Positions 4,454-40,411 of a stretch of 44,581 nt of DNA are shown one piece after another. The notes under the pieces are model-generated. The model had not been told where the DNA came from and made no database searches. It worked only from the letters and a program-made list of their open reading frames with translations. The position numbers were made by a program, and so were the translations under genes. Numbering within the stretch: the first letter of the stretch is position 1; every line of letters starts with the position of its first letter. This DNA comes from a phage, in sequence record PZ445532.1; one strand, given 5' to 3'.

Positions 4454-5218
4454 TTAGCGCGGAATGCCGCAAATCTCGTTGAGTGTTTTCACATCCAGCG
4501 CCACCGCCGTGGATTTTGGCTTGTCCGGGTATGGGATGAATTGCTCAACTTCAGGCCATGCTTTAATCAGCTTCTTGTCAGTATTGTGCAGGTCCAGCAC
4601 ACCGGTAACGGTGAGTTTGAACGCGTCATACTTAGCACGCAACTCACGGCGGGCCTGGTCGTTACGGTCCAGGCGCTTACAGAAGTCATGGTCCGCAGGG
4701 TAATCTGCGCGACCGCGTGGGAGATATATCGGCAGCGCTTTCCCGTCCTCGTCCACTTCGCACACTGACGCGAGCATAACTGTCTCGAACCCCGGAACGA
4801 TATCGCCGAGATCAGGCGCGAGCTTATTCATATATTTCTCTTCCCAGTATCCGCGATGTACGCGGTATTGGTGACCGTCACCGCTCAAGGACAAGGTGCG
4901 AACATTTCCGCCTGCGTTGATTTCGAAAGTGGCGTCGTAAACGCTGCCGATACCTTTCGGGCGGTCGGTGTTATAACTATATGTCGCCTTGTTGGTATAT
5001 ACACTGACGCCGTACATCTGCGACGGGTCATCGACGATTGCGGCAATGCGCTCTAGTAGCTTGGCGAACGTGCGAATGCCTTCCGGCATACAGTCCAGCG
5101 TAATGGCATAAGCCAGGTCGCGCGAGTCCGTCATGATTTGTTTGGCTTCGGTTGCGATTTCGTGGTCGCGCAGGATGTTAGCCAGAATCTGATTTTTAAT
5201 GTCTTTAGTCAGTCTCAT
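4454..5218 (-). CDS. hypothetical protein (second gene of antisense cassette)
   Basis: 254-aa ORF. RBS GAGGA 7 nt upstream of the ATG. No recognisable motif. Co-oriented with the DnaN-like gene. Confidence 0.6.
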   Translation of the reverse strand: MRLTKDIKNQILANILRDHEIATEAKQIMTDSRDLAYAITLDCMPEGIRTFAKLLERIAAIVDDPSQMYGVSVYTNKATYSYNTDRPKGIGSVYDATFEINAGGNVRTLSLSGDGHQYRVHRGYWEEKYMNKLAPDLGDIVPGFETVMLASVCEVDEDGKALPIYLPRGRADYPADHDFCKRLDRNDQARRELRAKYDAFKLTVTGVLDLHNTDKKLIKAWPEVEQFIPYPDKPKSTAVALDVKTLNEICGIPR

Positions 5219-5818: not shown

Positions 5819-5960
5819 TTCCTCATGTTGGTGTGCAACCAATATACTGCAACCAACATACGCAATGCAAGCGAATTTTGCGATTATTTTTATCACTGAT
5901 AATATTAGAGGCGTGAAGTCGAGCGGGTGGCCCGCTCTGCCACAATCCCAGGGGGATAGC

Positions 5961-10735: not shown

Positions 10736-11113
10736 TTGGAGAATACTACAATGGCTAAAGCACCACTCTTTACACTTGACCCTAAGCCTACCTTTAAGCT
10801 GCCGATTGAGATCCCGCGCCCAGGCGAAAACGAACCGGGCAAAATGACGTTTACCGTGCGCCACCGTCCGATCGACGAGTTTTCGCAGACCATGCAGGAT
10901 ACTGAGCGCAAGCTGTCGGAATATGACGACAACGACCCGGAAGGCTTTAACGTTATGGTCGAGGCCATAATGCACGTCGCTGAAGGCTGGAATCTGCCAG
11001 ATGAATTTAACGCGGAGAACGTCCGCCGCCTGGTGGTTAACTACCCTCGAGCGTTCGGTGTGTTCCACACGTCGTACTATCTCGAATTGATGGGGTTGCG
11101 TGAAAAAAACTAA
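10736..11113 (+). CDS. tail assembly chaperone (gpG-like)
   Basis: 125-aa acidic ORF two genes upstream of the tape measure. Ends REKN* on the slippery run GAAAAAAAC. Confidence 0.7.
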   Translation: MENTTMAKAPLFTLDPKPTFKLPIEIPRPGENEPGKMTFTVRHRPIDEFSQTMQDTERKLSEYDDNDPEGFNVMVEAIMHVAEGWNLPDEFNAENVRRLVVNYPRAFGVFHTSYYLELMGLREKN

Positions 11114-11427
11114 TTGAGGCGGCGCGACGCTTTTATGGCCCGCCGCCACCCTCCGAAGATTTAGCCGCGAGTTTATGGGGAGCGACCCCTGAAGACGTTT
11201 GCCCCCCGGTTGCACTATGGCCCGACAACGCGAAGGTAGTCGCAGTCTTCACAGATTGCTCCACGCAATGGCGCACCGGATTCGGTGGCGCATACGGCAT
11301 CGACTACGGCGTACTGGAATGGCTATTTAAGATGCACGGCATCGAAAACGCACAACGTGCGTTTAAAGATATCAAGCTAATGGAACGCGTTGCGCTGGAT
11401 GAAATGGCGCGGCAGAACCCCGCATAA
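10736..11427 (+). CDS. tail assembly chaperone, -1 frameshift fusion product (gpGT-like)
   Basis: Heptamer A_AAA_AAC at 11104..11110 sits just before the zero-frame stop. The -1 frame is open for 108 codons (LIEAARRFYGPPPP...ARQNPA*) to 11427 and has no start codon of its own. Confidence 0.6.
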
Positions 11428-11429
11428 CG

Positions 11430-11742
11430 AAGCGGGACAGGCGGGACGTCCCGTTTTGTCCCGCACCTCTAAAACTGCATATTTACCCACTTACATTGCA
11501 TAAATTAAAAGCGGGACAGGGTGCTGTCCCGATCTATCCCACCCTCAAAATGTGAATATCTATTCTGTTTTCGTGCATAAAGTAAGCGGGACAAAAAGCG
11601 GGACAAACAGGAGGCGGGACAAAGCGGGACAGCACCCTGTCCCCGCCAGTGCTGCCGCGGGTTTTAGCCGATCGGGACAGGCGGGACAAAGCCCAGTCTT
11701 TCAGACTAGACGGGGGTCAATGGCCCCCCTCGTCTGAGACTG
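11430..11742. repeat. non-coding module: GCGGGACA(G) repeat array, inverted repeats and 51-bp conserved hairpin element (copy A)
   Basis: At least 8 copies of GCGGGACA in a 380-bp gap, several paired with CTGTCCC as hairpins. Ends with a 51-bp sequence (11692..11742) identical to 39840..39890. Confidence 0.85.
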
Positions 11743-11810
11743 AATAAGGTTTGTTTTAAATTCGCTGATACAATAACCGACGGCAACTGCATAAAAAGGG
11801 GGACTGCATA

Positions 11811-14453
11811 ATGGCAGATCAGGCAGCGGGCATCACGCTCAAGGCGGATGTTGCACAAATCAGAACGGCGAATACTGTACTTGATTCATTCGCACAGAAA
11901 TCTGAGAACACAGAACAGAAAGTAAAGAAATTAAACGACACCCTCGGCAAGTCGAAAAAGGTTACTGGCGACGCCGCGGGCGGAATGGAAAAGTTAGCGA
12001 CTGAATCGCAGCGTGCCGCCGATGGCATGACGAAACAAGAGCGACTCGCCAGCCGACTAGGCATGTCAACCAAAAACCTGGGATTCGCATCGCGGAACGC
12101 GGCATTCCAGTTACAGGATATCGCGGTTACGCTTGAGATGGGTATGCCGGTGCACCGCGTTATGCTTCAGCAGCTACCACAGCTAACCGGCGCATTTGGC
12201 GGACTGGGTAACACGCTGCGATATGTTGCAGGCTTCCTCGGCCCAGTAGGGATCGGACTTGCTGCCGTAACGGCGACGTTAGGCGTGGGTGTGGCAATTA
12301 CGTCACGGGCAGAGAACCAAGTAGCCGCGCTTAATAAGACGCTGGCGCTGTCCGGTAATATCTCCGGCCTCACAGCTAACCAGATCCTGGTGCTGTCCGA
12401 GAACGCCGAGCGCATGGGCGGGTCTTTTCGCAAGACGCGTGACACAATCCAGGCACTGGCGGCGGCTGGTGTGAAAGCGGGTGGTGACTTCGGCGCATTG
12501 GCTAAGGTAGTTAATGACTTTGCGAAGGTGTCCAGCCAGCCGATCGAGGATGTGGTGGCGGCGGTGGCTAAGCTGTCAACCGACCCCGTTGGCGGACTGC
12601 GTGCGCTGGCGGATAAGTATCACGTCGTAAACGAAGCGCAGATCCAGCAGGTACAGTCGCTCGTTGATGCGGGTCGTGAGACAGACGCAGTTGCGTTGGC
12701 TAACAAAACAGCCGCTGCGTCGTTCACCAGCATGACCAATGAAATCAAGTCCAACATGGGTACGCTTGAGCGGTCGATGAACGTCGTCACATCGGCAGCT
12801 AAATCTATGTGGGATGCAATCCTGGATGTGGGCCGCGCGCAGTCCTCGAATGAGTCAGAGATGAAAGCGCGTGAGTCATTGCAGCGCATGACCACGGCTT
12901 ATTATGCCGAGATGAAAGCGGTAAACGCTGCCGGTGGGGTAATGACTGAAGCGCAGAAAGCACGTATTAACATGCTTTACAGCGAACTGGTCGCCCAGGA
13001 AAAAGTGGTGGCGTCGCTCACCCTGCGCAACCGCGCCGAGCGTGACAACGCCCGCGCCGCGGATGAATCAGCAAAGGCGAACGAGGAGGCCAACCGCACT
13101 GCCCGTGACCGCGCCGCGTTCGAGAAGGAATACGCCACCAACGCTAAGAAGCGCGCCGACGAGATCGCCCGCCTCAATTTGCTGAATAAGCGCGGCGTTA
13201 TTGATGAGAAAGAACTAGCCGAGGCGGTTAAGCAGGTCAACGAGCGCTACAAAGACCCCGCCCCGAAGAAGGCCGCGGCTGTTCGCGTGGATGCCGGTAT
13301 GAAAATGCTGGAAGTCGCACGGAGCGAACTGGCCCAGCTTCGAGAATCCGGCAAGCAGATCGAAGCCAACGCGTCTACGCAGACCCGCACGCAACGCGCT
13401 CAAGCGGCCTTAAACAAGCTGATCGCCGACAATGAGCAGTTAATCGCTGCGAGCAAAGAAAGAGCGCTAACGGCAGCAGAAAAGCAGCAATTAGTCGAGT
13501 TCGGGCGCGTGAAGGAAGTCCGCGAGCAGATCGTCGAAGAAGCCAAATTGCTGGATGCGAAAGAGCAGCAGGTTAAGGCGCACGCGCAGATCGATGCCTT
13601 CGTTAAGAACCAGAACGCCGAACTAAAAGCCACCGCCGCGGGGTATGCGCTTTCCACTCGCGAAGCGGCAAACCTGCGCGAAGAATTGCAGCTAATTGAC
13701 CGCCTGAAGCGGGTTGGCGCTAACGATACCGATATTGACAAGGCGGTGTCTAAGCTGCGCGAAGTGCAGGAAGCACAGACCGGCGCTAACGCCTCGCTAT
13801 GGGATGGCTTCAGCCGCGGGCTTAAGGATAGCGTGGATGAAATGGGTAACGGATATACGCAGATGGCGACGCTAACGAAATTCACGTTCAGCGCTATGCA
13901 AGACACGATGAACGAGTTTTTCGAGACTGGCAAGCTGAACGCAAAGGATATGGTTAAATCCATCCTGAGCGAACTAATCAAGCTGGCTACCTCGCAGGCG
14001 TTCAAGTCCATCGTTAGCGCTTTCGGTGGCGACGGCGGCAAAAACGGATTGTTCGGCGCTATCTTCTCTGGCCTCACTAAGAATGCGGACGGCGGAGCGT
14101 ACGCAGGAGGCAATCTCGCGGCCTATTCGGGTAAAGTGGTAAGCCAGCCTACCTTTTTCAGTTATGGCGTCCAGGCGTTCGCTAAGGGCGCAGGATTGAT
14201 GGGGGAGGCCGGACCCGAGGCCATCATGCCACTGAAGCGCGGGCCGGACGGGAAACTGGGCGTTGCCGCGTCTGGCGCAGGTGGTGGTATGGTCGTGACG
14301 ACTAACGTTTACACGGGGACCGGTAAAACGGATACCAGTGTCAGCGGGCCGGACCCCCGTACTGCGCAGGCGTTCGGCAAGCAAATCACCGAGGCGGTGA
14401 AATCCGAGATCGTGAAGGCGACGAAACCGGGTGGTGTACTTTACAAACGATGA
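11811..14453 (+). CDS. tail tape measure protein
   Basis: 880-aa ORF, Ala/Gln/Lys-rich with long predicted helical segments and a glycine-rich C-terminal part. Canonical position. Confidence 0.9.
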   Translation: MADQAAGITLKADVAQIRTANTVLDSFAQKSENTEQKVKKLNDTLGKSKKVTGDAAGGMEKLATESQRAADGMTKQERLASRLGMSTKNLGFASRNAAFQLQDIAVTLEMGMPVHRVMLQQLPQLTGAFGGLGNTLRYVAGFLGPVGIGLAAVTATLGVGVAITSRAENQVAALNKTLALSGNISGLTANQILVLSENAERMGGSFRKTRDTIQALAAAGVKAGGDFGALAKVVNDFAKVSSQPIEDVVAAVAKLSTDPVGGLRALADKYHVVNEAQIQQVQSLVDAGRETDAVALANKTAAASFTSMTNEIKSNMGTLERSMNVVTSAAKSMWDAILDVGRAQSSNESEMKARESLQRMTTAYYAEMKAVNAAGGVMTEAQKARINMLYSELVAQEKVVASLTLRNRAERDNARAADESAKANEEANRTARDRAAFEKEYATNAKKRADEIARLNLLNKRGVIDEKELAEAVKQVNERYKDPAPKKAAAVRVDAGMKMLEVARSELAQLRESGKQIEANASTQTRTQRAQAALNKLIADNEQLIAASKERALTAAEKQQLVEFGRVKEVREQIVEEAKLLDAKEQQVKAHAQIDAFVKNQNAELKATAAGYALSTREAANLREELQLIDRLKRVGANDTDIDKAVSKLREVQEAQTGANASLWDGFSRGLKDSVDEMGNGYTQMATLTKFTFSAMQDTMNEFFETGKLNAKDMVKSILSELIKLATSQAFKSIVSAFGGDGGKNGLFGAIFSGLTKNADGGAYAGGNLAAYSGKVVSQPTFFSYGVQAFAKGAGLMGEAGPEAIMPLKRGPDGKLGVAASGAGGGMVVTTNVYTGTGKTDTSVSGPDPRTAQAFGKQITEAVKSEIVKATKPGGVLYKR

Positions 14454-36968: not shown

Positions 36969-37298
36969 ATGAATATCAACGACGCAATCGAAATGTTAAC
37001 GAAGACTGTTTGCAGTGAGACAAGCCGGTCATGGGCGTATACCGATGCCGTGGGGGCGGTGCTATTTGAGATTGAACGTCTGCGCAGTGTAGAAAAAGAA
37101 TTACGCGCCAGGCTGGAATTGCTCAACGGTACGGCGGCGAGCAAGCTGCAGAAGCACAATGAAGAAATGGAAGAATACAAAAAGCAGGTTATACGTTTGC
37201 GCGCCGAGGGAAAATCCTGGGCGATGATTGCCGAGTTGACTGGGATTAATCAGAGCACAGTGCGCTCCTGGGTACGCAATAATAAAACTTCTAAGTAA
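36969..37298 (+). CDS. HTH DNA-binding protein (putative transcriptional regulator)
   Basis: 109 aa. C-terminal helix-turn-helix-like KSWAMIAELTGINQSTVRSWVRN. Confidence 0.6.
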   Translation: MNINDAIEMLTKTVCSETSRSWAYTDAVGAVLFEIERLRSVEKELRARLELLNGTAASKLQKHNEEMEEYKKQVIRLRAEGKSWAMIAELTGINQSTVRSWVRNNKTSK

Positions 37299-37308
37299 GG
37301 CCACGGCA

Positions 37309-39573
37309 ATGAGCTTAATTAAATTCGCTGTAACAAGGCCCGCTAAAAAAGGCGAAAAAGCCAGGGCGGAAAACTTCCAGATGACCACCGATGAATTTTT
37401 CGAATTTATCAAAGATGCGAAAGAAATATCCTCGGTGCACATCAACAAGACGGAAGATAAAGCCGAGTATGCGCGCCGCAAGCGTAAGGCCGACGGCATC
37501 GTGGCGTATACCAGTGACGGATTGCGTCGTAAGACCAGTGCGGTGGACCGCTCGATCCTGTTCTTCGATATTGACCGCACCGACACCCGCACCCTACGCC
37601 GCTGCCGTAAGGCGTTCACTGACGCGGGGCTGGAACACGTATTCCACACCACAACCGGCGACCGTCACCCATTGAAAGGCGGCACGCGTTGCGCTCGATT
37701 CCTGGTGCTCACTGACAAGCCTGTACCGGCTGAAGACCTGGGCCGCGTCCAGTATGCACTATTACACCAACTGGGTCTGTCAGATGTGGACTTCGACGAT
37801 TGCACGAAAGACACAAACCGCCTGATGTACCTGCCACACCAGCAGTCTGTTATTAAGTGCCACTATGGCAAGCGCGCACGCGTACGTCGTCTGCTCCGCC
37901 TGGCTGACAAGCTGGGAGTTGAGAAAGAGGAAGTCCGTCGCGAACTGACCCCGGGCGACGACGCAGTGGCAGACGGCATTCTGGACTGGTGCTTCCAGGC
38001 AGGATTCGAGGAGTTATCTTCCGGGCGGGGCTATGAAGTGCCGTGCCCGAACGAACATCTGCACAGCGGCGAAGGGTCCACCGCTATTATGGTCAAGGAT
38101 GGCGAGATCCGTTTCAAGTGTATGCACACCGGCAACGAGTGTTGCTCGGAACTGAATAGACACCAGCACCTGGCGCTGCGTCTTATCGGGATCCCGGACC
38201 ACCTGAACGTCGAGCCACACAATATGTCCCGTAAGCAAATCGCCGCCATCCTTCCGGGGCTGGACGACGAGGAAGTCGAATCCTTATATGAACATATTGT
38301 TGATGCGGTTGGCGACGGCGAAGAATACGGCGTGTGCACCGATGCGGATCTGGATAACGAGCCGGTTGCGCTGTTCAGTAAGCACGACCCGATTATCGAG
38401 GGGTTGATTAACTTTAAATCGACCTGGTACATGGCGGGTGAGTCGAATATCGGTAAGTCTTTCTACGTGCTGGGCCAGATGGGCGCGGTTGCCGCGGGTA
38501 TTCCGTTTGGTGGCGCGAAGGTCGTCCAGTCTCATTGCTTCTATTTCGACGCGGAAGGTGGCGAAGCCTCCAACCAGCGTAAAGAAGCATTGCAGATTAA
38601 ATATGAGCACGACCTGGACAAGCTGCACATTATCGATCTGCAGTCACGCGGCTGGGATATCACCAGCAAATCGGGCTTGCGCGAAGTTATCAGCTTTATC
38701 AACCGCACCGCTAACGGCGAACCGGTTGGCCTGGTGGCGTTCGACTCACTAAACCAGACTGTTGCGTTGCGGTCCGCCGAGGCTAAACCGTTCGACGAGA
38801 ACAACGCCAGCGATATGGGTGAAGTGGTCAAAGCGCTGAAGGCCATCGCGGAAAATACAGGTGGCAGTGCGGGCGTCATCCACCACCCGGCTAAAGGTGC
38901 AAACGGCAGCAGAACGCCACGCGGGTCCGGCGCGCTGCATGGTGCTGTCGATTCTGCGTTCTTCCTGGAACAGCCGGACGACAACCAGCCCGGACAATTG
39001 AACCTGTATCACGAAAAGTCACGTAACGGCATCAAGCAAGCGCCGCGCGGCTTCGTCCTGCTCAAGTGCAAGGTGAAGGTGGATCTCCGCAAGTCAGAAG
39101 CGTTCGAGGCGCACCAGTCCACCAGCACCGGGCCAGACTTCGGCGACGTGGTTGCCGGATGGGACGTCAAGCCGATTGCCTCCACGCCACGCGACGAGAC
39201 TCTCTACCTCGTACCGGTTGCCCTGGCACCGTTCGCTATTGAACAGGCGAAGGCGGCGGGCAAGGCCGCGGTTAAGGAAGAGAACACCGCCGGACCGCGC
39301 AACGAAAAAGAGAAAGTGCTTTATGCGGCACTGGAAAAACTGATGGAAGATAACCCGTACCATACTGGATTCAGTAAATCGGCAATTGTCCGCCAGGCGG
39401 GACTCGCAAAAGGTGGCACTTCGACGAAGGCAATCGACGATATGGTGGAGCGCGGGGTAATAGGTTTTTATACAGATCCGCACACCGGGGCCATCTATGG
39501 GTCTTCTAATTTGGTCATCAAATCGGATATCCCTATCACGCTTTCCGCGACCGATGACGATTTAAAAGATTAA
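37309..39573 (+). CDS. DNA primase-helicase (primase domain fused to RecA-like NTPase)
   Basis: 754 aa. Cys/His-rich segment CPNEHLHSGEG...FKCMHTGNECC. Walker A GESNIGKS and Walker B-like LVAFDSLNQ in the C-terminal half. Confidence 0.8.
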   Translation: MSLIKFAVTRPAKKGEKARAENFQMTTDEFFEFIKDAKEISSVHINKTEDKAEYARRKRKADGIVAYTSDGLRRKTSAVDRSILFFDIDRTDTRTLRRCRKAFTDAGLEHVFHTTTGDRHPLKGGTRCARFLVLTDKPVPAEDLGRVQYALLHQLGLSDVDFDDCTKDTNRLMYLPHQQSVIKCHYGKRARVRRLLRLADKLGVEKEEVRRELTPGDDAVADGILDWCFQAGFEELSSGRGYEVPCPNEHLHSGEGSTAIMVKDGEIRFKCMHTGNECCSELNRHQHLALRLIGIPDHLNVEPHNMSRKQIAAILPGLDDEEVESLYEHIVDAVGDGEEYGVCTDADLDNEPVALFSKHDPIIEGLINFKSTWYMAGESNIGKSFYVLGQMGAVAAGIPFGGAKVVQSHCFYFDAEGGEASNQRKEALQIKYEHDLDKLHIIDLQSRGWDITSKSGLREVISFINRTANGEPVGLVAFDSLNQTVALRSAEAKPFDENNASDMGEVVKALKAIAENTGGSAGVIHHPAKGANGSRTPRGSGALHGAVDSAFFLEQPDDNQPGQLNLYHEKSRNGIKQAPRGFVLLKCKVKVDLRKSEAFEAHQSTSTGPDFGDVVAGWDVKPIASTPRDETLYLVPVALAPFAIEQAKAAGKAAVKEENTAGPRNEKEKVLYAALEKLMEDNPYHTGFSKSAIVRQAGLAKGGTSTKAIDDMVERGVIGFYTDPHTGAIYGSSNLVIKSDIPITLSATDDDLKD

Positions 39574-39690
39574 ATTCTGCGCGCATTGGTTGCCGATATG
39601 GTAATTCCCATATCGGTGAATGATTAAATTTTGCGCGCATTGGTTGCCATTTTGAGTGTTTTTACCTGGTCGTATTGGTTGCCGTGTAGT
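39574..39690. repeat. three direct repeats of GCGCATTGGTTGCC plus a perfect 9-bp inverted repeat
   Basis: TTGGTTGCC at 39586, 39640 and 39675. The first two copies sit in a 23-bp direct repeat TAAATT[CT]TGCGCGCATTGGTTGCC. Inverted repeat CCGATATGG-TAATTC-CCATATCGG at 39593..39616. Confidence 0.8.
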
Positions 39691-39724
39691 GTAAATATAG
39701 TGAATAGTTATGCAATAAAACTGC

Positions 39725-39890
39725 ATAAAGTAAGCGGGACAGAAAGCGGGACAGACCAGGGGCGGGACAAAGCGGGACAGCACCCCTGTCCCGCCCCGGA
39801 TGACGCGGCCTGGCGAGGAGCGGGACAGCGGGACAGCACCCCAGTCTTTCAGACTAGACGGGGGTCAATGGCCCCCCTCGTCTGAGACTG
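39725..39890. repeat. non-coding module: GCGGGACA(G) repeat array and 51-bp conserved hairpin element (copy B)
   Basis: AGCGGGACAG repeated at least 6 times. Hairpin GGGACAG-CACC-CCTGTCCC. The terminal 51 bp (39840..39890) are identical to 11692..11742. Confidence 0.85.
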
Positions 39891-40105
39891 CATAAAATCC
39901 AGGATGCACGACGCACGGCAGCATGATGCAAATTGCGGTCGTCGATGAACTAGGCAACCAATGCGAGTTGCAGAATGGTGGGTGGAAAATGCAGTTTGCA
40001 GTCACAGCAGATAGCGATCGACTTTTTCATGCGCGTGATTAATATTGGTTGCATTCGCCCTGGCACACTGCTATATTGGTTGCACACCAACATGAGGACT
40101 GAACA

Positions 40106-40411
40106 ATGAAAGCATTAATCTGGAATTACACAATGGCGGTGGCGAAGCTGTACGAAGCGAAGCACACAAACGGCAACGCAGACGACGCGCGCCAGGTTGT
40201 TATCCTGGCCCAGCAGGGAATCATGAACGCGTTCGACGATATGTTTGCCAGCCTGGACGAACTGGAACCGCTGCGCGTGGCAATCTGCGAATATGCGATG
40301 GCTTTTGCCCGCGAGCGCCTGGCGTATCGCTTCGGGATCGGTGAGACGGCAGTGACAAACGTCGCTCGTATTAAAGCCCAGCGCGAACTATTCGCCCAGC
40401 TTGCAAAATAA
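40106..40411 (+). CDS. hypothetical protein
   Basis: 101-aa ORF preceded by the 27-bp leader shared with the DnaN-like gene. Confidence 0.55.
   Translation: MKALIWNYTMAVAKLYEAKHTNGNADDARQVVILAQQGIMNAFDDMFASLDELEPLRVAICEYAMAFARERLAYRFGIGETAVTNVARIKAQRELFAQLAK

What the first reader, a model, noticed from the sequence alone, without database searches (positions are those of the whole stretch)
11430..11742. Non-coding module of GCGGGACA repeats ending in a 51-bp element (copy A, inside the late tail operon)
A 380-bp gap between the tail chaperone and tape-measure genes holds at least 8 GCGGGACA(G) units. Several are paired with CTGTCCC as hairpins (GGGACAG-GGTG-CTGTCCC, GGGACAG-CACC-CTGTCCC), and one is a terminator-like CGGGAC/GTCCCG stem followed by TTTT. 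The gap ends with CCCAGTCTTTCAGACTAGACGGGGGTCAATGGCCCCCCTCGTCTGAGACTG, a 51-bp imperfect hairpin that is identical to 39840..39890. A duplicated structured element with iteron-like arrays is not explained by any coding feature. Candidates are a replication origin, an RNA processing or antitermination element, or a protein-loading site.
Basis: seen in the sequence. Interest (0 to 1): 0.8.

Follow-up and report, generated by a model that had tools for sequence, protein, structure and literature searches.

The report
Duplicated phage replication-origin module
The repeat-rich gap in front of the tape-measure gene is most likely a second copy of this phage's replication origin: short binding repeats plus a DNA hairpin, recognised by the phage's own primase-helicase. 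This is a familiar kind of element in an uncharacterised phage group.

Summary
GCGGGACA occurs 17 times in the window against 2 expected. Fifteen copies lie in two non-coding regions: A (11428-11810) and B (39574-40105).

The duplication is a module of about 175 bp, not just 51 bp. It runs AT-rich box, four direct repeats, an inverted pair, two more repeats, then a compound hairpin.

The window is a Dhillonvirus, the HK578/SSL-2009a/SO-1 group of E. coli phages. All 159 or so sequenced relatives carry both copies. The SO-1 GenBank record already flags "region A" and "region B".

Copy B lies directly downstream of the 754-aa helicase-primase. That protein combines an archaeo-eukaryotic-type (AEP) primase, a RepA-like helicase and a C-terminal winged helix. 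Relatives at 37-48% identity keep the same module in the same place, with a different repeat sequence. Their hairpins differ in sequence but still pair.

In one lineage both A and B switched together to GTGTGGCA, and the winged-helix region diverged at the same time.

I conclude that A and B are iteron-type origin modules bound by the helicase-primase. Copy A is a second origin or an auxiliary origin site. The closest precedents are SPP1 oriL/oriR, P4 ori/crr and RSF1010 oriV. RNA-based readings have little support. None of this has been tested experimentally.

The parts
10736..11113 (+). Tail assembly chaperone gene (G-like), upstream neighbour of region A
   Evidence: Pfam Phage_TAC_4, E 1e-23
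11113..11427 (+). Chaperone extension ORF (DUF1799). It has no start codon of its own, so it is probably read by a -1 frameshift (GT-like). Its stop is the left edge of the gap.
   Evidence: Translation is open from 11113, but the first ATG is at 11332. Pfam DUF1799, E 3e-21.
11428..11810 (.). Region A: the 383-bp non-coding gap holding 13 iteron cores and the hairpin
   Evidence: Conserved in 11 diverse Dhillonviruses, with repeats kept and spacers varying. Two places per genome in 159 phage records.
11432..11464 (.). A-left repeat cluster 1: GCGGGACA, GCGGGAC|GTCCCG head-to-head palindrome, TTTT, then an inverted TGTCCCGC. HK578 annotates this as a rho-independent terminator.
   Evidence: The scan found no + strand terminator here.
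11511..11531 (.). A-left repeat cluster 2: inverted pair GCGGGACAG-GGTG-CTGTCCCG. In other genomes it has the same form as cluster 1, so A-left is a tandem pair of units of about 75 bp.
11546..11585 (.). AT-rich conserved box (GTGAATA...TGCATAAAGTAA) just 5' of the iteron block of module A; a candidate DNA-unwinding element
   Evidence: GC 0.35-0.40 against 0.54 for the genome. The box is conserved in A and B and, as TGAATAGTTATGCA, in other genera.
11574..11747 (+). Module A: the copy of about 175 bp that is duplicated at 39722-39895
   Evidence: Alignment and blastn, about 86% identity over 174-176 bp
11586..11631 (+). Four direct GCGGGACA iterons of module A (starts 11586, 11598, 11614, 11624; spacing 12, 16, 10)
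   Evidence: The spacing is the same in module B and nearly constant across Dhillonviruses, with single-base indels in one spacer of some genomes.
11624..11646 (.). Fourth iteron plus an inverted, degenerate iteron (GGGACAG-CACC-CTGTCCC)
   Evidence: HK578 has CGGGACGTCCCG at this position instead.
11672..11688 (+). Last two iterons of module A (TCGGGACA, GCGGGACA)
   Evidence: Two allelic forms are shared between A and B among genomes.
11692..11742 (.). 51-bp compound hairpin of module A: helices CAGTCT/AGACTG, CAGAC/GTCTG and GGGGG/CCCCC, with a 7-nt loop
   Evidence: Identical to 39840-39890. DNA fold -13.3 kcal/mol, z -4.3. Stems are invariant and the loop varies among Dhillonviruses. Other genera have different sequences that still pair.
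11765..11774 (+). Invariant CTGATACAAT (extended -10-like, TGnTACAAT) 37 nt before the tape-measure ATG; a candidate promoter for the downstream tail genes
   Evidence: Invariant in 11 Dhillonviruses. Consensus reasoning only, not tested.
11811..14453 (+). Tape measure protein gene, right neighbour of region A
   Evidence: Pfam TMP_2 and Tape_meas_lam_C in homologues
36969..37298 (+). Small helix-turn-helix protein gene just upstream of the helicase-primase; an alternative candidate DNA binder and probable regulator
   Evidence: Pfam HTH_23 and Sigma70_r4_2. An equivalent small HTH gene precedes the helicase-primase in relatives.
37309..39573 (+). Helicase-primase (754 aa), the proposed initiator. 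Parts: AEP primase (about residues 1-205), Cys/His motif (residues 246-287), RepA-like AAA_25 helicase (357-531), C-terminal winged helix (666-739 = 39304-39525).
   Evidence: Pfam AAA_25, E 2e-19. PHROG 3228 'replicative helicase-primase'. N-terminal model (pLDDT 84.7) matches S-2L PrimPol (E 2e-5) and RSF1010 RepB' (E 2e-3). The C-terminal model is a winged helix.
39574..40105 (.). Region B: the 532-bp non-coding region after the helicase-primase gene
   Evidence: SO-1 'region B'
39690..39733 (.). AT-rich conserved box of module B (GTGAATAGTTATGCAATAAAACTGCATAAAGTAA)
   Evidence: GC 0.30-0.35; conserved across genera
39722..39895 (+). Module B. Iterons start at 39734, 39746, 39762, 39772; inverted iteron at 39787-39794; last two iterons at 39820 and 39828.
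39840..39890 (.). 51-bp compound hairpin of module B
40049..40077 (+). Sigma-70-like promoter (TTGCAT, 17 nt, TATATT) downstream of module B. It would drive the operon starting at 40106 and is embedded in TTGGTTGC motifs.
   Evidence: The same arrangement recurs at other operon starts. Consensus reasoning only, and the stricter scan did not list it.

Best explanation
Regions A and B are two copies of an iteron-type replication-origin module. The phage's own 754-aa helicase-primase recognises both.

Proposed mechanism, all steps inferred:
1. The protein's C-terminal winged helix binds the GCGGGACA repeats and concentrates the protein on the DNA.
2. The adjacent AT-rich box melts.
3. The RepA-like helicase domain unwinds into the neighbouring compound palindrome, which folds out as a hairpin.
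4. The RepB'-like AEP primase domain uses the hairpin as its start site.
5. The phage DNA polymerase I extends the primer.

Copy B, directly downstream of the helicase-primase gene, is the ancestral position. Copy A, inserted between the tail chaperone and tape-measure genes, is a second origin kept by selection.

What is shown: the anatomy, its conservation, the link to the helicase-primase gene, the protein's domain folds, and the joint change of repeat sequence and C-terminal region.

What is inferred: binding, melting, priming at the hairpin, and whether A actually fires.
For: 1. Enrichment and clustering. GCGGGACA occurs 17 times against 2.1 expected, confined to A and B.

2. Link to the helicase-primase gene.
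- B starts right after the helicase-primase stop codon.
- A motif-first scan of viral contigs found 37 non-Dhillonvirus loci with CGGGACA arrays. In 17 of them the array abuts the 3' end of a helicase(-primase) gene (from -221 to +96 bp, plus one locus where the array lies inside the ORF).
- In those loci, that gene is the only window protein with a homologue.

3. A protein-first search reaches the same place. Relatives at 37-48% identity carry the same ordered module directly after the gene: AT-rich TGAATAGTTATGCA box, direct repeats, an inverted pair, two more repeats, a compound hairpin. These include L145, L148, L151, L406 and L408, Hafnia TS33, Salmonella FSL SP-031 and Shemara, and Pantoea AH01. 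Each has its own repeat sequence: TCCGACA, AGGGATA, GGGGATG, CTCGCAA, TTGCGA, AAGGGAT, GGGGAGA or CGGACAA.

4. Repeat sequence and C-terminal region change together.
- Rhizobium phage 16-3 uses GCGTGACA where three relatives use GCGGGACA. The proteins differ mainly in the last 110 aa or so.
- L435 uses GTGTGGCA and L405 uses GCGGGACA. Their helicase cores reach 96-98% identity but the C-terminal region only 46-56%.
- Recognition-helix residues group by repeat type.

5. A and B switched together. In the GTGTGGCA lineage both the copy before the tape-measure gene and the copy after the helicase carry the new repeat.

6. Protein folds. The N-terminus matches AEP primases, including RSF1010 RepB' bound to its hairpin DNA. 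The middle is AAA_25, the RepA type. The C-terminus is a winged helix.

7. Hairpin. A stable DNA fold is present at the same position in 10 lineages (z from -1.7 to -4.3). There are 6-10 both-side pair changes between Dhillonvirus and three other lineages (TS33, L148, L145, L151) and none against the near-identical Pantoea AH01. Within the genus the stems are invariant and the loop is free to vary.

8. Copy A is under selection. It is present in all 159 or so Dhillonvirus records. It is also present in the sister group (L432) and in a phage whose helicase is only 46% identical (L433).

9. AT-rich stretches flank the repeat blocks.

10. The downstream operons have promoter-like sites of their own, so the modules are not needed as promoters.

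11. HK578 mutants that escape the OLD defence map to this helicase-primase and its operon's promoter. The authors read these as replication-initiation mutations (bioRxiv 10.64898/2026.07.10.737580).
Against: - There is no experimental evidence of any kind: no origin mapping, no binding data, no transcript data.
- Covariation between repeats and the C-terminal region is confounded with phylogeny, and the number of independent switches is small (about three).
- A small HTH protein is encoded just upstream of the helicase-primase in this family and could bind the repeats instead.
- The association is not universal. Six related loci (L142, L143, L144, L146, L147, L149) have a terminator and a converging gene after the helicase and no adjacent array. 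Twenty of the 37 CGGGACA-array loci had no detectable helicase beside them.
- The winged-helix matches are weak as homology (E 0.02-0.4).
- The cumulative GC-skew minimum lies near 36.5 kb, not at A or B, but skew here follows transcription direction.
- Guernseyvirinae such as TS33 manage with one copy, so A need not be a firing origin.
- The hairpin helices were aligned by hand.
Confidence: 0.65

Rival explanations
1. Both regions bind the helicase-primase, but copy A does not fire. It is an auxiliary site. It could be an enhancer needed in cis, like the P4 crr region. It could be a pairing ('handcuffing') partner that limits initiation. Or it could be a tightly bound barrier that stalls forks coming from B and triggers the switch from circle to concatemer replication, as proposed for SPP1 oriR.
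For: - Guernseyvirinae (TS33) have only the copy after the helicase gene, so one module is enough for replication in that relative.
- A has nearly twice as many repeat cores as B (13 against 7), including extra clusters. That would suit a high-occupancy binding site.
- For SPP1, a review describes two similar origins about 13 kb apart on the circular map, one interrupting the late genes. It describes fork stalling at initiator-bound oriR as the proposed trigger of the switch (PMC6316719).
- A and B are about 16 kb apart on the circular map of this 44.6-kb genome.
Against: - A keeps every part of the module, including the AT-rich box and the hairpin, with the stems invariant. A pure binding site would not need those.
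- In the L433/L407 phage the canonical module is the copy before the tape-measure gene, while the region after the helicase is a variant. That suggests the A position can carry the main function.
Confidence: 0.2
2. The repeats are operator arrays for the small HTH protein encoded upstream of the helicase-primase (window 36969-37298), or for another regulator. The modules would then control transcription, acting as roadblock, attenuator or promoter. In A this would tune expression of the tape-measure gene relative to the upstream tail genes.
For: - A small HTH gene precedes the helicase-primase throughout the family.
- HK578 annotators called a terminator at the left edge of A.
- A conserved extended -10-like site lies between module A and the tape-measure gene.
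- The tape-measure protein is needed in far fewer copies than the tail tube protein (general knowledge).
Against: - A second, different motif (TTGGTTGC, 19 copies against 2 expected) is the one spread over operon starts and overlapping promoters. It is the better candidate operator for that regulator.
- In the distant array-bearing loci the helicase-primase is the only protein shared with the window. The 16-3 regulator p099 has no homologue next to the arrays of L024, L065 and L068.
- No + strand terminator passes the scan in A or B.
Confidence: 0.08
3. The module acts as RNA: a structured leader, a small RNA, a processing site or a cis-acting antiterminator. It would be transcribed from the + strand at two points of the rightward transcription unit.
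For: - Both copies have the same orientation as the surrounding genes.
- The RNA folds are somewhat more stable than shuffles (z -2.2 and -2.8).
- The G-run is always on the 5' arm of the hairpin in all lineages.
- A TTGGTTGC-type promoter-like site lies just upstream of module B.
Against: - No Rfam family matches at gathering threshold.
- The repeats occur in both orientations, and in mixed orientation in distant relatives.
- The repeat sequence tracks a DNA-binding domain.
- Position is tied to the helicase gene's 3' end in phages with unrelated downstream genes.
- HK578 replaces a looped inverted pair with a loop-less palindrome, which makes sense for duplex DNA but not for an RNA hairpin.
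Confidence: 0.05
4. Copy A is a passive duplicate, or a small mobile or selfish repeat that landed in the tail operon and has no function of its own.
For: A and B exchange sequence: both carry the same rare alleles in some genomes. Metagenome assemblies break at the shared repeat.
Against: - A is retained in every one of about 159 genomes, with the repeats and hairpin conserved while the spacers drift.
- It is present at the same position in lineages as distant as 46% helicase identity, with lineage-specific repeats.
- There are no copies elsewhere in the genome, in E. coli genomes or in plasmids.
- No terminal inverted repeats or target duplications were seen.
Confidence: 0.02

Closest known systems
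Bacillus phage SPP1 oriL / oriR (initiator gp38)
   Same: A lytic siphophage of about 44 kb with two similar origin regions (direct repeats plus an AT-rich unwinding element), both bound by the same phage initiator. One is at the replication genes and the other interrupts the late structural genes. They are about 13 kb apart on the circular map (PMC6316719). Here A and B are about 16 kb apart, and A interrupts the tail genes.
   Different: The SPP1 initiator is a separate origin-binding protein that works with a loader and a DnaB-type helicase. oriL lies inside the initiator gene. No hairpin element is described. No sequence relationship was found or expected.
Satellite phage P4 ori and crr with the alpha protein
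   Same: One multifunctional protein (primase, helicase, C-terminal winged helix) binds the repeats at the origin (as summarised in PMC4234260). From my own knowledge, P4 has octamer repeats in two separate cis regions, ori and crr, both needed for replication.
   Different: The P4 alpha primase is of the bacterial Toprim type and its helicase is superfamily 3. The window protein has an AEP-type primase fold and a RepA/RecA-type AAA_25 helicase. P4 has no compound hairpin next to its repeats, as far as I know.
IncQ plasmid RSF1010 oriV (RepC iterons; RepA helicase; RepB' primase with ssiA/ssiB hairpins)
   Same: The origin combines repeats with hairpins that serve as primase start sites. The helicase is of the RepA type and the primase is RepB'-like (summary in PMC4234260). 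The window protein's N-terminus matches RepB' bound to its initiator DNA (3h25, E 2e-3, prob 1.0), and its helicase is AAA_25 with a faint direct hit to RepA 1g8y.
   Different: RSF1010 uses three separate proteins; here the three functions sit in one polypeptide. Its repeats are about 20 bp rather than 8 bp. It has two hairpins on opposite strands, whereas here there is one compound palindrome per module. It has a single origin.
Archaeal plasmid pRN1 (orf56 repressor, ORF904 primase-helicase with winged helix; stem-loop origin downstream of its own gene)
   Same: The gene order is the same: small DNA-binding regulator, then a multifunctional AEP primase-helicase with a C-terminal winged helix, then a structured origin directly downstream of that gene. 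The stem-loop still works when moved elsewhere on the plasmid. The authors noted similar stem-loops after related phage genes (PMC4234260).
   Different: The pRN1 helicase is superfamily 3. Its origin is a 100-nt stem-loop without repeats. It has a single copy.
Sodalis phage SO-1 'region A' and 'region B' (GenBank NC_013600 annotation)
   Same: These are the same two regions in a member of the same genus. They are annotated as repeat regions 'of direct, inverted and palindromic repeat sequences' with similarity to each other and a 'possible ...' function.
   Different: This is annotation only.

Membership tests
Iteron-type replication origin (plasmid or phage) | Cluster of several short direct repeats, far above chance | tested here: met
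   GCGGGACA occurs 17 times against 2.1 expected. There are 13 cores in A and 7 in B, with near-constant spacing of 12, 16 and 10.
Iteron-type replication origin (plasmid or phage) | Located next to the gene of its initiator protein | tested here: met
   B begins after the helicase-primase stop codon. The same adjacency holds in relatives and in 17 of 37 unrelated array loci. A is not adjacent; it is 16 kb away.
Iteron-type replication origin (plasmid or phage) | AT-rich unwinding region beside the repeats | tested here: met
   GC is 0.30-0.40 in the 40-60 bp 5' of each repeat block, against 0.54 for the genome. Composition only; melting was not tested.
Iteron-type replication origin (plasmid or phage) | The initiator binds the repeats sequence-specifically | not testable with these tools
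   Indirect support only: a winged-helix C-terminal domain, and joint change of repeat sequence and that domain.
Iteron-type replication origin (plasmid or phage) | The element supports initiation of replication | not testable with these tools
   No experimental data were found. The GC skew is uninformative because it follows transcription direction.
RSF1010/IncQ-type origin system | RepB'-type (AEP-like) primase | tested here: met
   The N-terminal model (pLDDT 84.7) matches S-2L PrimPol 6zp9 (E 2e-5) and RepB' 3h25 (E 2e-3, prob 1.0). This is similarity of fold, not of sequence.
RSF1010/IncQ-type origin system | RepA-type hexameric helicase | tested here: met
   Pfam AAA_25, E 2e-19. The direct sequence hit to RepA 1g8y is only E 0.47.
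RSF1010/IncQ-type origin system | Separate RepC initiator and two hairpins (ssiA, ssiB) on opposite strands | tested here: not met
   The winged helix is fused to the helicase-primase. Each module has one compound palindrome.
P4 alpha / ori-crr system | Toprim primase plus superfamily 3 helicase plus C-terminal winged helix | tested here: not met
   The winged helix is present. The primase fold is AEP and the helicase is AAA_25/RepA-type.
P4 alpha / ori-crr system | The same short repeats in two separate cis regions | tested here: met
   A and B share the octamer repeats. The P4 details come from my own knowledge and from the summary in PMC4234260.
SPP1-type dual origin | Two similarly organised origin regions, one within the late genes | tested here: met
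   A lies between the chaperone and tape-measure genes and B lies at the replication genes. The SPP1 description is in PMC6316719. This is a resemblance of pattern only; there is no homology to gp38.
   The scan lists no + strand site in 11000-12100 or in 39300-40400. CGGGACGTCCCG has no loop, and only a 4-bp stem with a 4-nt loop can form ahead of TTTT.
Any curated RNA family (Rfam 15) | Match at the gathering threshold | tested here: not met
   No match anywhere in the window.

The most novel reading that the evidence does not exclude
Copy A may not be just a spare origin. It could be an initiator-occupied site placed deliberately inside the tail operon to couple replication to late events. 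It might stall forks to trigger the switch to concatemer synthesis, or gate tape-measure expression by initiator occupancy. The extruded origin hairpins, present twice per genome, might also be the DNA structures that defence systems such as OLD or Lamassu sense in Dhillonviruses.
Probability: 0.2. Interest if true: 0.7.

Novelty: new variant of a known kind. Interest (0 to 1): 0.5.

Why it matters
Dhillonviruses and Guernseyvirinae are common coliphage and Salmonella phage groups. They are used in therapy collections and as model phages in defence studies (HK578, the SECphi phages, the BASEL collection). I found no description of their replication origin.

This analysis gives a concrete, testable origin: short binding repeats plus a hairpin, matched to a single protein that combines primase, helicase and a DNA-binding domain. 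It also identifies natural specificity switches (GCGGGACA to GTGTGGCA, GCGTGACA and others) that could be used to prove who binds what.

It shows that the two-site layout known from SPP1 and P4 also occurs in an enterobacterial phage lineage.

It also bears on a live question. A 2026 preprint reports that HK578 escapes the OLD defence through mutations in this helicase-primase and its promoter, and proposes that OLD senses hairpins at phage origins. The hairpins described here are the obvious candidates.

For annotators, the small ORFs called in these gaps are probably spurious.

Tried and rejected
- Rfam scan of the whole window at gathering threshold: nothing.
- Promoter and terminator consensus scans of both regions: no + strand site.
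- A fuzzy-regex search for the 51-bp element timed out; I used blastn instead.
A single-protein query worked.
- Two exact-pattern scans of viral contigs, meant to find second copies in the L148 and L145 phages, returned almost only chance matches. They did not settle whether those phages have a copy A.
- A protein search with the C-terminal 165 aa alone returned a single partial hit. The full-length search worked.
- IHF consensus: present inside the arrays of some relatives but absent from A and B in this window.
- GC skew: follows transcription direction, so it says nothing about the origin.
- Pfam on genes flanking helicase-less CGGGACA arrays gave no coherent picture; one DnaB-type helicase, otherwise unknowns.
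- Searches of E. coli genomes and plasmids for the module, looking for satellites or plasmids that borrow the origin: no match.
- Coding potential of the gap. The 61-aa and 84-aa ORFs across the modules are translations of the repeats, and A and B differ by indels. I rejected them as genes.
- MITE or mobile-element reading: rejected (see rival explanations).
- Literature searches for a described Dhillonvirus or Guernseyvirinae origin found none.
Full report
**What is there**

The window is a complete or near-complete genome of a Dhillonvirus, the HK578 / SSL-2009a / Sodalis SO-1 group of E. coli siphophages. About 160 phage records match it at 80-95% identity.

The finding sits in the 383-bp gap between two tail genes. 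On the left is the tail assembly chaperone pair: 10736-11113, Pfam Phage_TAC_4, and its frameshift extension 11113-11427, DUF1799. On the right is the tape-measure gene, 11811-14453.

GCGGGACA occurs 17 times in the window against 2.1 expected, and no shuffle reaches 17. Fifteen of these lie in two places: region A (11428-11810) and region B (39574-40105).

**Anatomy**

The duplication is larger than the 51 bp reported. A module of about 175 bp, 11574-11747, matches 39722-39895 at about 86% identity. In order, the module consists of:

- an AT-rich box ending in TGCATAAAGTAA (GC 0.30-0.40 against 0.54 for the genome);
- four direct GCGGGACA repeats spaced 12, 16 and 10 bp apart;
- an inverted copy that pairs with the fourth repeat;
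- a variable stretch of about 35 bp;
- two more repeats;
- the 51-bp compound hairpin.

Region A also has two further repeat clusters to the left, 11432-11464 and 11511-11531. In other genomes these look like a tandem pair of units of about 75 bp. In total A has 13 repeat cores and B has 7.

The stem HK578 annotates as a terminator is CGGGAC|GTCCCG, two repeats head to head. The terminator scan found no + strand site in either region.

**Conservation**

Every Dhillonvirus record carries two copies: 159 records with 327 matching places. The exact 24-nt hairpin arm occurs in 28 loci from 15 viral contigs, all Dhillonvirus-like, and 12 contigs hold two copies each.

Across 11 diverse genomes the repeats and hairpin stems are conserved while the spacers and the hairpin loop vary.

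The two copies exchange sequence. Two allelic forms of the last repeat pair, and several loop variants, occur in both A and B. Some genomes have the same rare allele in both copies while the 20 bp upstream stay specific to each position.

The module is absent from E. coli genomes and from plasmids. I found no paper that analyses them.

**Link to the helicase-primase gene**

Region B begins at the stop codon of a 754-aa protein (37309-39573). It belongs to PHROG 3228, 'replicative helicase-primase', and has a Pfam AAA_25 domain at residues 357-531. Two independent routes tie the repeats to this gene.

*Route 1, starting from the motif.* A scan of IMG/VR for pairs of GCGGGACA returned many unrelated contigs with dense arrays. 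Of 37 non-Dhillonvirus array loci, 17 have a helicase(-primase) ORF beside the array. In 16 of them its 3' end lies within -221 to +96 bp of the array, and in one (L109) the array lies inside the ORF. In those loci that gene is the only window protein with a homologue. They include relatives of Rhizobium phage 16-3 and of Roseobacter phages.

*Route 2, starting from the protein.* Relatives at 37-48% identity carry the same ordered module immediately after the gene, each with its own repeat:

- TCCGACA (L145), AGGGATA (L148), GGGGATG (L151);
- CTCGCAA (L406), TTGCGA (L408);
- AAGGGAT (Hafnia TS33), GGGGAGA (Salmonella FSL SP-031 and Shemara), CGGACAA (Pantoea AH01)

. A 68%-identical sister group (L405, L095) keeps GCGGGACA and the same hairpin.

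The association is not universal. Six related loci have a terminator and a converging gene after the helicase instead of an adjacent array.

**Who binds the repeats**

The protein's parts were modelled.

- The N-terminal 350 aa (pLDDT 84.7) match AEP-type primases. The best hits are cyanophage S-2L PrimPol (E 2e-5) and RSF1010 RepB' in complex with its initiator hairpin DNA (E 2e-3, probability 1.0).
- An invariant Cys/His motif follows.
- Next comes the RepA-like helicase domain.
- The last 75 residues or so fold as a winged helix (pLDDT 80-90). The best matches are MarR/ArsR-type regulators and ORC winged helices, which is weak as evidence of homology.

The repeat sequence tracks this C-terminal region in three settings:

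1. Phage 16-3 uses GCGTGACA at every site where three relatives use GCGGGACA. The proteins, 59-69% identical overall, diverge mainly in the last 110 aa or so.
2. L435 uses GTGTGGCA while L405 uses GCGGGACA. Their helicase cores reach 96-98% identity but the C-terminal region only 46-56%.
3. Across genera, recognition-helix residues group by repeat type.

A small helix-turn-helix protein encoded just upstream (36969-37298) is an alternative binder. However, a different motif, TTGGTTGC, is the one scattered over operon starts, where it overlaps sigma-70-like promoters: 19 copies against 2 expected. The 16-3 regulator p099 also has no counterpart beside the arrays of its relatives.

**The hairpin**

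The 51-bp element folds as DNA at -13.3 kcal/mol (z -4.3). Equivalent positions in nine other lineages also fold (z from -1.7 to -4.3).

The shared design is three helices, of about 6, 5 and 5-6 base pairs, with the last a G-run pairing with a C-run. Because the outer parts are themselves small palindromes, some versions fold as three small hairpins instead.

In a hand-made alignment, Dhillonvirus differs from TS33, L148, L145 and L151 by 6-10 pair changes on both sides, with pairing kept. It shows none against Pantoea AH01, whose hairpin is nearly the same as the Dhillonvirus one.

**Copy A**

Guernseyvirinae such as TS33 have no gap between the chaperone and tape-measure genes. Even so, copy A is older than the genus:

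- The sister group has it directly before the tape-measure gene, even with two inserted reverse-strand genes in between (L432).
- A phage whose helicase is only 46% identical has a full module, with its own AAGGGAT repeats and its own hairpin, in a 237-bp gap at the same position (L433).
- In the GTGTGGCA lineage both A and B carry the new repeat. The metagenome contig breaks exactly at the shared repeat, with a 27-bp overlap between its end and its start.

A joint switch at both sites is hard to explain unless one specificity determinant reads both.

Neither module is needed as a promoter for the genes that follow. TTGCAT, 17 nt, TATATT lies at 40049-40077 ahead of the 40106 operon. An invariant CTGATACAAT lies at 11765-11774 ahead of the tape-measure gene.

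**Interpretation**

The best reading is that A and B are iteron-type origin modules served by the helicase-primase. The winged helix binds the repeats. The AT-rich box melts. The helicase exposes the palindrome as a hairpin. The RepB'-like primase starts there. The phage DNA polymerase I extends; relatives show DNA_pol_A in the same gene cluster.

The anatomy, conservation, gene linkage, domain folds and covariation are shown. Binding, melting, priming and firing are inferred.

The main uncertainty is whether A fires or is an auxiliary initiator-bound site.

**Comparison with known systems**

- *SPP1* has two similarly organised origins about 13 kb apart, one interrupting the late genes. Fork stalling at the initiator-bound second origin is proposed to trigger the switch to concatemer replication (PMC6316719).
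- *P4 alpha* is a primase-helicase with a winged helix that binds origin repeats.
- *RSF1010* combines repeats with primase-recognised hairpins, a RepA helicase and a RepB' primase.
- *pRN1* has a small regulator, an AEP primase-helicase with a winged helix, and a stem-loop origin downstream of its own gene (PMC4234260).

The present system mixes these features. It fuses an AEP primase, a RepA-type helicase and a winged helix, and pairs them with repeats plus a hairpin, in two copies. It is not a member of any one of these families by the protein criteria tested.

**Relevance**

A 2026 preprint reports HK578 mutants that escape the OLD defence. They carry changes in this helicase-primase and in the promoter of its operon. 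The authors propose that OLD senses hairpins at phage origins. The origin of HK578 was not mapped there, and the modules described here are the natural candidates.

**Verdict**

Noticed in passing
window 5835-5856(-), 21948(-), 24988/25000, 26672(-), 29969(-), 33864/33880, 36772, 39586, 39640, 39675, 39954(-), 40045, 40076, 40609(-), 43493(-): A second over-represented motif, TTGGTTGC (19 copies against 2 expected), lies in intergenic regions. At several operon starts it forms TTGGTTGCAT, 17 nt, TATATT promoters, with a second copy as the palindrome TTGGTtgcacACCAA over the likely transcript start. This is probably the operator or promoter code of a phage regulator, perhaps the small HTH protein at 36969-37298. 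Relatives have lineage-specific versions (GTTGGCAGC, GTTGGCCGC, ATGTTGGCTG) flanking their origin modules.
   Followed up: partly
window 11113-11427: The DUF1799 ORF after the tail chaperone is open from 11113 but has no start codon until 11332. This fits a GT-type chaperone made by a -1 frameshift from 10736-11113.
   Followed up: partly
window 11765-11774: CTGATACAAT (extended -10-like) is invariant in 11 diverse Dhillonviruses, 37 nt upstream of the tape-measure start. It is a candidate internal promoter for the distal tail genes.
   Followed up: partly
window 11672-11742 and 39820-39890; loci L409-L428: The 3' half of modules A and B shows signs of gene conversion. The same alternative alleles of the last repeat pair and of the hairpin loop occur in both copies, and some genomes carry the same rare allele in A and B.
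   Followed up: partly
L024, L065, L068, L126 (Rhizobium phage 16-3 group); L011, L032, L048, L049, L051, L057, L088 and others: The very same 7-mer, CGGGACA, forms dense arrays after helicase-primase genes of phages unrelated to Dhillonvirus (alphaproteobacterial, Roseobacter-type and high-GC contigs). Their C-terminal domains are not obviously similar to the window's. I cannot tell whether this is shared ancestry of the DNA-binding domain or convergence.
   Followed up: partly
L148 about 4880-4900, L404 (TS33) about 10965-10985, L433 about 1345-1360, L024/L065/L068 arrays: A consensus or near-consensus IHF site (ATCAAnnnnTTA) lies inside the origin modules of several relatives. There is none in regions A or B of this window.
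   Followed up: partly
L145 hairpin loop; L430 (Pantoea AH01) hairpin loop: In two lineages an inverted copy of the lineage's own repeat sits in the loop of the compound hairpin (TGTCGGA, TTGTCC). Dhillonvirus loops have none.
   Followed up: no
L432 353-1101: In the sister group two small reverse-strand genes of unknown function are inserted between the tail chaperone and module A. This gap therefore also acts as an insertion spot for extra genes.
   Followed up: no
window 11552-11737 and 39631-39885: ORFs of 61 and 84 aa run across the modules and are annotated as hypothetical proteins in several GenBank records. They are translations of the repeats and are not conserved in frame between A and B, so they are probably spurious.
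   Followed up: partly
L142, L143, L144, L146, L147, L149: A group of helicase-primase relatives (43-45% identity) has a terminator hairpin and a converging gene directly after the gene instead of the module. L143 and L147 (AAGGCCC, 4-5 copies) and L149 (GGCAGCA, 7 copies) have a different clustered repeat about 1.5 kb downstream.
   Followed up: partly
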